From Escherichia coli (lineage in GTDB: Bacteria > Pseudomonadota > Gammaproteobacteria > Enterobacterales > Enterobacteriaceae): a stretch of DNA of 64,000 nucleotides. The stretch lies in NCBI RefSeq assembly GCF_009931435.1, contig NZ_CP043414.1; one strand, 5' to 3'. The position numbers were made by a program. Shown here piece by piece: positions 9,001 through 12,000 of this stretch (the stretch's first letter is position 1; each line of letters begins with the position of its first letter).

Positions 9001-12000
9001 CGGGCAACTCAGAGCATGAACAAAGTGCAGGAGTGGCGAGGCGAAATATCCTTGCGCGGCATAACGTAAATAATTAACGCTCACCGCTGTGGTAACGAGT
9101 TGAAGATTGTCGGAACAGGCAAAAAACGGGCGACCGGAGCGCGCATCTAAAGCGCCATAATACCAGGCTGCCAGCAGCATTCCCGTTAGCGTGTCATCAT
9201 GACTCGGCGTTAATCCCGGCCCTTTACCCAGCCAGTGCCGCCAGTCGGTCTTAACGCCATTGAGCGCGGCCTGAAAACAGTGACGAAACTGGCGTAATTC
9301 AGCGGGAAGCGGATCGCCTGCCGCCAACGCCAGCGGCCCGAAAAGCCCGGTTTCCTCCGCGCGTTGCATCCATGCCGCTGCAAGCGGTTGGGGATGCGCA
9401 GGCGGCGTAATACGCAGCAAACAATAACGCTGTGGCTGTTTAACCGTGAAACGCCCGAGGCGAATCCCTTGAGCCACAACCTGTGGTCGTTCATTGCCGC
9501 ATAATCCACCGCATAACGCATCGAATTGTGCGCGGCGAAGCACCCATCCTCCGGGACCGAAACCACTACCCTGACGATGCAGCGTTAACAATTCACCGCT
9601 TTCCGTCATCAGGTTAATCGCCCGCCGCCACACGCCCGCTAACCGCCAGGGCTGGCGATAATTCGGTGAACTACGGCTGGCAAGCAGAGGATGGATGATC
9701 GTCATTGCGCGTTCCTCAACCAATACCCATGCTTTCAGCCAGTGCTTCCAGCGCCTGTTCAAAGCACGCCAGCGGTGCCCGCACAGTGCCTGCACCAATC
9801 TGCCCGATCCCCGCTTCTTTATGGGCGATACCGGTATTGATGAGCGGCGTAATGCCGGTTTCTACCACGCGACGAATATCCAGCCCCAGACACGCGCCCT
9901 GGAAATCCCAGCCAGGGATCTGCAACTGCATATTGCGCTCAAGGAAGATTTCTGCCATCTCTTCAGATACTGCTCTGGCTGCTTCCATACCACCCGCACC
10001 GACAAAGCGTGTTACGCCAGGGGCGGCGATCATTGCCGCACCACCGATACCAAAGGTTTCGGTAATCGCGCTATCGCCCATATCCGGGTTCGCCTGCTCC
10101 TGCGAGAAGCCGGTGAAAAATAGACCTTGGGGAGTGTTTACAGGCGCAGTAAACCAGCGTTCGCCCAGCCCGCTGACCCGAATCCCGAACATATTGCCGT
10201 TGCGGGTCATAGCCGTGACGATGCTGCCTGCGCGGATCATCGCACCAGCATCCATCGCCGCCTTGCAGTAAGCCATCGCGAGGTTAAGGAAGAACTGATC
10301 GGTCACGCTGAGGAAATCCATCACTTCCGCGATGTGTTGTTTATCATGATCGAGGCGAGCAATTTGTGGGGCCAGCGCACGCATTAACAGTGCTGAGGAA
10401 GCAATATTGCGCTGATGGAACTCATCGCCCATGGTAATGCCCTGCGCCATCATCGCGGTGAGATCGATACCGCGCTCCATGCGCCCCAGCGCCGCGCTTA
10501 ATACTGGCATTAACACATCGCGCATCCAGCGATGGCGAGTCAGGACATCTTCGCCGTAAGCGCCAAAACGCATCACTTTGCCGATACCTTCGTTGAGGTT
10601 GCAGTACGCCCGATTGCCGTCGGTCACGTTCTCGACCACCAGCATCGGCATACTGGCAGAAGTAATGCCGCCCATTGGCCCGACAGCATTCACATGGTGA
10701 CAAGGAATGAAGTTCACTTCCCCCTGCTCCAGCATTGCCAGTGCCTGCGCTTCATCTTTCGCCCAGCCTTCAAACAGACATGCGCCCACACATGCCCCTT
10801 TCATGGGTCCGGTCATCTCCTGCCAGCGCATCGGCGGCCCGGCGTGAAGCAGTGTTTTACCCTGATTTAATTCATTAATGAGTGAAGAAGCCGGTTGCAC
10901 ATCCAGCCAGTGTGGACGAGCGCGACGAATTTGTTCGATAACCGCAGCATTGGCTTGCGCCACTGATGTAAACATGGGAACCCCTTATTGCAAACGTTCT
11001 AATAAACGAGCCAGTTTTTTATTGCCGCCAGCGACTGGCGACCATTGGTAATGCACAACCGGTTTGTTGGCGCTTTGTAGCTCCAGCGCAAAGCTGCGTA
11101 ATCCGATGTTAATCACGGCGACGTTTTCCAGTAATGACGGTGTATGTTGCTGTGCGGCAGGCGAGAGCGGATGAATTAACGCCGCCGCCAGCAAGGTGGC
11201 TTCCGGTAGCGAACTCACTACCGCGATCCCCGCATCTTCCAGCGTGGCGATTTGCTGCGAGCGGCATTGCGGTCACGTTCAGTGCCTGTCACCGTGGCAA
11301 TGGCATACAGTGGTTGATTGTCTGGACGCGCGGCACAGGCTTTTTGCCAGGCGCTTACCAGCGGGGCAGCAGGATCGGTGGTCGCACCGAAGCCAATCAC
11401 CACATCAAGCAGCAATACGCGCACTTGCGGTTTAGCGCCGAGATCGGCAATTAACTGGTTGCGTAAGGTTGGGTCAATCATCGGATGGGGACGCCCGACG
11501 GTGTAGAAATCATCGCCGAGGTCAATAATCTGGTGACCATCGGCGTCGAGCATCATGCCGTGATGATGGGTATCGTCGGCTACCACGCCAAGATGCGCGG
11601 CAAGTAATCCCGCCGCTTCGGCGGCTAACGTACCGCCGGTATACAAGCCGCAAATAAATCCGCTGCTGGCAGGCGCTATCGCGTTACGTCGCGCCGTAAC
11701 GCGTGAAAGCAGGCAAGCCAGGCGCGCAGCCTCATCCAGCGAGGAGGCAAACCAGACATTCTCGTCGCGGGCCACCGCCGGGATATAACCTAAAAACAGC
11801 GCCACCGTCGGTTTGCCGGTTGCTTTCATGGCATTAACAATTTTCAGACGCACAGCTTCGGCAGGCGGTTTTGAAACAAACGCCAGCACTTCGCTTTTCT
11901 CGTCTACACTGAGCATTTCCAGCGCCGTTAGCGCACTGATGCCGCCCACTTCACGGCTGAGATCGCGCCCGCCAAGACCAATCGCGTGAGTAATTCCCTC

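What the first reader, a model, noticed from the sequence alone, without database searches (positions are those of the whole stretch)
11255..11290. Apparent single-base frameshift splitting fdrA
A 477-aa ORF and a 77-aa ORF abut in different frames. The frame of the downstream piece reads as plausible protein (PQCRSQQIATLEDAGIAVVSS...) for about 19 codons upstream of its annotated start, while the upstream piece ends in an Arg/Lys-rich junk tail. One base restored in the ...GAACGTGAC|CGCAATGCC... context (minus-strand sense) merges them into one ORF of about 555 aa. This is either a genuine inactivating mutation in this strain, which would affect the fdrA-ylbE-ylbF-ybcF cluster linked to oxamate/carbamate metabolism, or a homopolymer sequencing error.
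Basis: partly seen in the sequence, partly recalled or inferred. Interest (0 to 1): 0.45.

Follow-up and report, generated by a model that had tools for sequence, protein, structure and literature searches.

The report
Real one-base frameshift in allF (fdrA)
One C is missing from the allF (fdrA) gene of this E. coli strain, a real and recently inherited mutation that truncates a subunit of the enzyme making oxamate from allantoin, so this is an ordinary strain-level pseudogene.

Summary
On the minus strand a 477-aa ORF (12651..11218) and a 77-aa ORF (11218..10985) are two pieces of allF/fdrA. One C is missing from a CCC run, leaving CC at window 11272-11271 (codons D460/P461).

Putting the C back gives a 555-aa protein identical, residue for residue, to an extant E. 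coli FdrA found on 15 contigs. One such sister strain differs from the window by 2 SNPs plus this indel over 21.7 kb.

It is not a sequencing error. The same truncated products occur on 8 other contigs: one NCBI assembly and Logan assemblies of at least three runs with unrelated accession numbers. Every one fetched differs from the window by at least one SNP. The other 43 genes compared in the window have no indel or premature stop.

None of 5,426 complete E. coli genomes carries the allele. Orthologues in seven other enterobacterial genera are 554-555 aa with a conserved C-terminus.

The truncation removes the end of the Ligase_CoA domain and the C-terminal tail. It most likely abolishes oxamic transcarbamylase (AllFGH) and blocks the oxamate branch of anaerobic allantoin breakdown; this step is inferred, not tested.

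This is an ordinary, recent pseudogene of low interest.

The parts
11218..12651 (-). 5' fragment of allF (fdrA): a 477-aa ORF made of 460 native codons, 17 out-of-frame codons (RNAARSKSPRWKMRGSR) and a TAG stop at 11220..11218
   Evidence: ORF list. Alignment with intact fdrA. Pfam HMA_AllF_N, CoA_binding and Ligase_CoA hit this product.
11271..11272 (-). Mutation site: a CC run where intact alleles have CCC (loss of one C, codons D460/P461; ref nt about 1377-1380 of 1,668)
   Evidence: This is the only indel against sister strain L013 over 21.7 kb.
10985..11272 (-). Native-frame 3' remainder of allF (P461 to Q555 plus stop, 96 codons), no longer read from the allF start
   Evidence: Repair of one base gives a 555-aa ORF identical to extant protein P0165. 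This part is conserved across genera.
10985..11218 (-). 77-aa GTG ORF, equal to native codons 479-555. Its GTG shares a G with the TAG of the upstream piece (TAGTG), with GGGGA 9-13 nt upstream
   Evidence: Whether it is translated is unknown.
9716..10975 (-). allG (ylbE), intact, 419 aa
   Evidence: No gaps or stops against the reference. Pfam AllG.
8890..9705 (-). allH (ylbF), intact, 271 aa
   Evidence: Pfam AllH.
7997..8893 (-). allK (ybcF) carbamate kinase, intact, 298 aa, last gene of the allFGHK operon. It carries a private T190M change at window 8325
12968..14017 (+). allD, ureidoglycolate dehydrogenase, the step that makes oxalurate. Divergently transcribed and intact

Best explanation
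This is a genuine, recent one-base deletion in allF (fdrA), the first gene of the allFGHK operon. CCC became CC at codons 460/461. The allele arose inside a tight E. coli clone and is inherited by a sub-lineage of it.

Translation from the allF start now leaves the native frame after Asp460, adds 17 unrelated residues and stops 243 nt before the native stop. The product lacks the last roughly 31 residues of the Ligase_CoA domain and the conserved 64-residue C-terminal tail.

AllF is needed together with AllG and AllH for oxamic transcarbamylase. The expected consequence (inferred) is loss of the oxalurate to oxamate plus carbamoyl-phosphate step. Ureidoglycolate would then be diverted through AllA to glyoxylate and oxalate. 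The carbamoyl phosphate, ATP and third ammonia obtained via AllK would be lost, with only a small growth cost. Early termination may also lower expression of allG, allH and allK (inferred).
For: Shown:
- There is a single gap against intact fdrA, in a CCC run.
- The repaired 555-aa protein is an exact extant E. coli protein found on 15 contigs.
- Sister strain L013 (GCA_035607835.1) differs from the window by 2 SNPs plus this indel over 21,668 bp.
- The identical 477-aa and 77-aa products occur on 8 contigs, including GCA_037230235.1 and Logan assemblies of ERR6140658, ERR11812419 and SRR11949428.
- All four fetched copies carry the deletion and differ from the window by at least 1 SNP. The only carrier contig long enough to hold a 64-kb window (322 kb) differs at several sites, so the window is a ninth assembly.
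- The other 43 genes compared in window 1-44.5 kb have no indel or premature stop.
- A 40-mer across the deletion finds no match in 5,426 complete E. coli genomes, and the best 101-nt matches all carry the extra base.
- Orthologues in Citrobacter, Salmonella, Klebsiella, Kluyvera, Lelliottia, Superficieibacter and Scandinavium are 554-555 aa, with residues 461-492 and 507-555 strongly conserved.
- Pfam Ligase_CoA spans residues 336-491, and PDB 3DMY includes residues 82-555.

From the literature:
- allFGH encode OXTCase and form an operon with allK. A delta-allF strain makes no oxamate and more oxalate (PMC11326118).
- A delta-fdrA strain consumes allantoin normally and grows to 0.6 against 0.7 for wild type (PMC8550087).
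Against: No raw reads of the window's own isolate were inspected. Loss of activity of the 460-residue product was not tested, and no truncation series of AllF is published in the papers read. The AlphaFold model used to place secondary structure is of low overall confidence (mean pLDDT 58). In the 20 kb compared, no other SNP marks the deletion carriers, so a single origin rests on parsimony only. The independence of the sequencing projects is inferred from unrelated accession ranges, not from metadata.
Confidence: 0.9

Rival explanations
1. Sequencing or assembly error: the strain really has CCC and an intact allF, and one C was dropped from the homopolymer.
For: The site is a short homopolymer. 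The allele is absent from all 5,426 complete E. coli genomes.
Against: The same allele is in 8 other contigs from one NCBI assembly and several unrelated SRA/ENA runs, each at least 1 SNP away from the window. Logan assemblies of near-identical sister strains give CCC, so the assembler has no systematic bias at this site. There is no other frameshift in the other 43 genes compared. A 3-base run is not error-prone for short-read data.
Confidence: 0.03
2. The gene still works. Either ribosomes shift frame at the site (recoding), or termination-reinitiation at the overlapping TAGTG yields a two-piece AllF (residues 1-460 plus residues 479-555) that assembles into an active enzyme.
For: The stop of the first ORF and the GTG of the second share a base, and GGGGA lies 9-13 nt upstream. 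The 77-aa piece is entirely native sequence.
Against: There is no slippery heptamer. A -1 slip would have to re-pair tRNA-Asp from GAC onto TGA (sequence). The flanking sequence is identical to intact sister alleles, so nothing has adapted to the split. The 18 conserved residues 461-478 (DPQCRSxQIAxLEDAGIxV) would be missing in any two-piece product. In the model these form a helix and half of a core strand of the Ligase_CoA domain, in a region with pLDDT 67-85. No orthologue is split in this way.
Confidence: 0.04
3. A natural shorter isoform: orthologues also end near residue 460-477, so the 477-aa ORF is a normal gene and the 77-aa ORF a separate small gene.
For: None beyond the ORF calls themselves.
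Against: All listed orthologues from eight genera are 554-555 aa at 100% query coverage with a conserved C-terminus. The 17-residue tail matches nothing in them. The intact allele exists in the same clone.
Confidence: 0.01

Closest known systems
E. coli K-12 AllF (FdrA, b0518, UniProt Q47208; PDB 3DMY), a subunit of oxamic transcarbamylase AllFGH
   Same: Same gene and same locus (allD divergent, then allF-allG-allH-allK). Same Pfam architecture in the N-terminal piece. The window sequence is 97-98% identical in DNA to intact E. coli alleles.
   Different: The window allele has lost one C and encodes 460 native residues instead of 555.
Intact sister allele P0165 (EMD6622346.1, MDO2728499.1, A0AAW7V7Y4_ECOLX), for example in GCA_035607835.1
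   Same: Identical at all 555 residues once the C is restored. The surrounding 21.7 kb differs by only 2 SNPs.
   Different: It carries CCC and a single 555-aa ORF.
Other natural allF lesions in E. coli
   Same: These are independent disruptions of the same gene, several in the same C-terminal part. They include nonsense codons giving 461-aa and 466-aa products, +1 at codon 458, -1 at codon 474, an internal deletion of about 430 bp, and an IS1 insertion in strain STEC2018-553. C-terminal fragments of 93 and 102 aa are also found on 33 and 78 contigs.
   Different: They are at different sites and in different lineages (95.7-96.9% identity to the reference used). Some come from single assemblies and were not checked for errors.
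Programmed frameshift genes (prfB +1, dnaX -1), recalled from general knowledge
   Same: Two abutting ORFs in different frames.
   Different: There is no slippery site, no conservation of the split among orthologues, and the intact form exists in the same clone.

Membership tests
AllF/FdrA (oxamic transcarbamylase subunit) | Domain architecture HMA_AllF_N + CoA_binding + Ligase_CoA | tested here: met
   Precomputed Pfam hits on the exact 477-aa product. On the intact homologue, CoA_binding spans 193-287 and Ligase_CoA spans 336-491. The Ligase_CoA domain is cut at residue 460 in the window.
AllF/FdrA (oxamic transcarbamylase subunit) | Orthology by sequence and synteny: first gene of allF-allG-allH-allK, divergent from allD | tested here: met
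   97.7% DNA identity to annotated fdrA. The gene order is collinear and the neighbours are intact.
AllF/FdrA (oxamic transcarbamylase subunit) | One uninterrupted ORF of about 555 aa with the conserved C-terminus | tested here: not met
   The gene is split into 477-aa and 77-aa ORFs by loss of one C. Orthologues are 554-555 aa.
AllF/FdrA (oxamic transcarbamylase subunit) | Supports oxamate formation together with AllG and AllH | not testable with these tools
   This needs anaerobic growth on allantoin with HPLC, as in PMC11326118.
Genuine frameshift pseudogene | An indel not divisible by 3 relative to intact orthologues, giving a premature stop | tested here: met
   A one-base gap, with the first stop at codon 478 instead of 556.
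Genuine frameshift pseudogene | Reproducible in independent sequence data | tested here: met
   Eight other contigs from an NCBI assembly and several SRA/ENA runs. All four fetched carry the deletion and differ from the window by at least 1 SNP.
Genuine frameshift pseudogene | The lost part is under purifying selection in relatives | tested here: met
   Residues 461-492 and 507-555 are conserved across eight genera at 75-85% overall identity.
Programmed ribosomal frameshift | A slippery sequence at the shift site | tested here: not met
   The site reads CGT GAC CGC. The -1 codon for the P-site tRNA would be TGA.
Programmed ribosomal frameshift | The two-frame arrangement is conserved in orthologues | tested here: not met
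   No listed orthologue is split at this site. A 40-mer across the deletion finds no match in 5,426 complete E. coli genomes.

The most novel reading that the evidence does not exclude
The deletion may be one of several independently selected hits on anaerobic allantoin catabolism in this clone, rather than neutral decay. Three lesions were seen: the lost C in allF (nine assemblies), a 7-bp deletion in allB in a sister isolate (ERR7450874), and a private T190M change in allK in the window strain. On this reading, loss of the pathway is adaptive in the clone's niche, as has been proposed for allantoin-gene pseudogenes in host-adapted Salmonella (recalled from general knowledge, not checked here).
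Probability: 0.12. Interest if true: 0.4.

Novelty: already known. Interest (0 to 1): 0.12.

Why it matters
The practical value is in annotation and phenotype prediction. This strain and at least eight related assemblies should be annotated with allF as a pseudogene. They are predicted not to make oxamate from allantoin under anaerobiosis, while still using allantoin through the glyoxylate branch.

The allele is also a clean natural marker that splits a very tight clone into two groups. Natural isogenic pairs exist (intact and deleted, about 1 SNP per 10 kb). These could be used to measure the fitness value of the recently defined AllFGH oxamic transcarbamylase. Beyond that, it is an ordinary recent loss-of-function mutation.

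Tried and rejected
- Sequencing error was rejected for the reasons given under the rivals.
- Recoding or a functional split gene was considered. No slippery site is present, and 18 conserved residues would be missing from any two-piece product.
- 'Orthologues also end here' was rejected.
- A literature search for the assembly and run accessions (JAXUWE, GCA_037230235, ERR6140658, ERR11812419, SRR11949428) found nothing. The host, sequence type and phylogroup of the clone therefore remain unknown.
- The AlphaFold2 model built on a 10-sequence alignment was poor overall (mean pLDDT 58, pTM 0.49). I used it only for residues 440-490 (pLDDT 67-85) and ran no fold search.
- I did not scan the metagenome or genome collections, because exact-protein look-ups already gave both carrier and intact sister genomes.
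- The frequency of allF pseudogenes among all complete E. coli genomes could not be counted with the tools available.

Full report
**Observation.** The ORF list for window 9,000-14,000 shows a 477-aa ORF on the minus strand at 12651..11218. Abutting it is a 77-aa GTG ORF at 11218..10985. The two share one base: the G of the TAG stop is the first G of the GTG, giving TAGTG.

The downstream frame reads TGA-CCG-CAA-TGC..., so it is open from Pro461 for 18 native codons (PQCRSQQIATLEDAGIAV) before the GTG. Megablast of the 1,667-nt stretch finds fdrA ('acyl-CoA synthetase FdrA') in 5,410 of 5,426 complete E. coli genomes, with 97.7% as the best identity. Pairwise alignment with the best hit shows a single gap: intact genes read GAACGTGACCCGCAATG and the window reads GAACGTGACCGCAATG. 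The two remaining C's are at window 11272-11271, inside the reported interval.

**Real mutation or error.** Five lines of evidence agree.

- Restoring one C gives a 555-aa ORF. That exact sequence exists in the 15-billion-protein collection as an annotated E. coli FdrA (EMD6622346.1, MDO2728499.1, UniProt A0AAW7V7Y4), and it was found on 15 contigs.
- The DNA around that intact allele is almost the same as the window. GCA_035607835.1 (L013) differs by 2 SNPs plus the one-base indel over 21,668 bp, and three further intact loci differ by 2-4 SNPs. The intact ancestor therefore circulates in the same clone.
- The exact 477-aa and 77-aa products are themselves in the collection, on 8 contigs. These include NCBI assembly GCA_037230235.1 and Logan assemblies of ERR6140658, ERR11812419 and SRR11949428. 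All four fetched copies carry CC. None has the window's private base at 8325, and the only carrier contig long enough to hold a 64-kb window (322 kb) differs at several further sites. The window is thus a ninth assembly with the allele. Logan assemblies of intact sister strains give CCC at the same site, which rules out a systematic assembler artefact.
- I compared 44 genes in window 1-44.5 kb, nucleotide by nucleotide, with strain 2013C-4282. Only fdrA has a gap or an internal stop, so the sequence is not riddled with frameshifts.
- A 40-mer centred on the deletion finds no match in 5,426 complete E. coli genomes. The best 101-nt matches listed (the top 30 of 5,407) all carry the extra base. 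The allele is rare and lineage-specific.

A three-base run is a weak slippage site. Identity by descent within a sub-lineage is therefore the parsimonious reading. I could not show this from flanking SNPs, because none marks the carriers in the 20 kb compared.

**What is lost.** On the intact protein, Pfam places CoA_binding at residues 193-287 and Ligase_CoA at 336-491. The crystal structure 3DMY ('Protein fdrA') covers residues 82-555. The frameshift after Asp460 therefore cuts the Ligase_CoA domain about 31 residues short and removes the 64-residue tail.

Orthologues from Citrobacter, Salmonella, Superficieibacter, Lelliottia, Kluyvera, Scandinavium and Klebsiella (75-85% identity) are all 554-555 aa at full coverage. 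In an alignment the segments 461-492 (DPQCRSxQIAxLEDAGIxVVxSLPEATLLA) and 507-555 are among the best conserved of the protein.

An AlphaFold2 model on this shallow alignment is poor overall (mean pLDDT 58). Residues 440-490 have pLDDT 67-85 and form strand 449-456, helix 461-473, strand 476-479 and helix 482-493. The shift deletes a helix, and the 77-aa ORF would begin inside a core strand.

[quoted passage not shown] These genes form an operon with allK (ybcF, catabolic carbamate kinase). A delta-allF strain makes no oxamate and more oxalate (PMC11326118). In the earlier study a delta-fdrA strain consumed allantoin as wild type did (21.0 against 21.1 mM). It made no oxamate and 10.9 mM oxalate against 3.2 mM, and grew to 0.6 against 0.7 (PMC8550087).

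In the window allG, allH, allK, allD and the other allantoin genes compared (allA, allB, allC, allE, allR, allS, allW, gcl, hyi, glxR, glxK, ybbY) are intact. The inferred phenotype is a block of the oxamate branch only. Flux would go through AllA to glyoxylate and oxalate, and the carbamoyl phosphate, ATP and third ammonia would be lost. A polar effect of early termination on allGHK is possible but untested.

**Rivals.**
- Sequencing error: rejected as set out above (about 0.03).
- Recoding or a functional split: there is no slippery sequence. The P-site tRNA-Asp would have to re-pair with TGA. The flanks are identical to the intact sister alleles. Any reinitiation at TAGTG, with a GGGGA 9-13 nt upstream, would still omit 18 conserved residues (about 0.04).
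- Natural short isoform: refuted.

**Comparison with what is known.** This is the known gene allF/fdrA at its known locus, carrying an ordinary loss-of-function allele. Other E. coli lineages carry other lesions in the same gene:
- premature stops giving 461-aa and 466-aa products;
- +1 at codon 458;
- -1 at codon 474;
- an internal deletion of about 430 bp;
- an IS1 insertion in STEC2018-553.

The best-matching complete genome has ylbE annotated as frameshifted. Decay of this operon is therefore recurrent. I found no description of this particular allele, but that does not make it a new kind of feature.

**Verdict.** Inactivation of oxamic transcarbamylase is likely (about 0.8) but inferred. 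Novelty: already known. Interest: low.

Noticed in passing
window 8325 (allK/ybcF, minus strand, codon 190): Private missense change T190M (ACG to ATG) in the carbamate kinase gene, downstream in the same operon. All eight sister loci compared, carriers and intact alike, have ACG.
   Followed up: partly
L015 (Logan ERR7450874), equivalent to window 19477-19483 (allB): A sister isolate with intact allF has a 7-bp deletion in allB that splits allantoinase into 203-aa and 242-aa ORFs. This is a second, independent lesion of the allantoin pathway in the same clone. It rests on a single assembly and was not verified.
   Followed up: partly
window 7682-7978: Three tandem copies of a 101-bp REP/BIME-like unit (96% matches) lie between purK and allK. 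The carrier assembly GCA_037230235.1 appears to have one unit fewer.
   Followed up: partly
window 44562-64000 (minus strand), with 41224-44558: A giant open frame of more than 6,450 codons, still open at the window end, corresponds to the SiiEA/BapA-related adhesin. Its type I secretion genes (HlyD-family adaptor, permease/ATPase) lie next to it. The copy in reference strain 2013C-4282 is annotated as frameshifted.
   Followed up: no
window about 40813-40820, next to cueR: A 1.2-kb hypothetical gene present in strain 2013C-4282 (L003 40749-41972) is absent from the window.
   Followed up: no
whole window (tested on 1-25000): The best identity to any of 5,426 complete RefSeq E. coli genomes is only about 98% over 25 kb. 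The clone therefore belongs to a lineage with no close complete-genome representative. Its phylogroup was not determined.
   Followed up: no
L001 5678-6936 (E. coli 2017-02-2CC): In the best-matching complete genome the neighbouring gene ylbE (allG) is annotated as frameshifted. In STEC2018-553 an IS1 sits in fdrA. Together these show recurrent decay of the allFGHK operon.
   Followed up: partly
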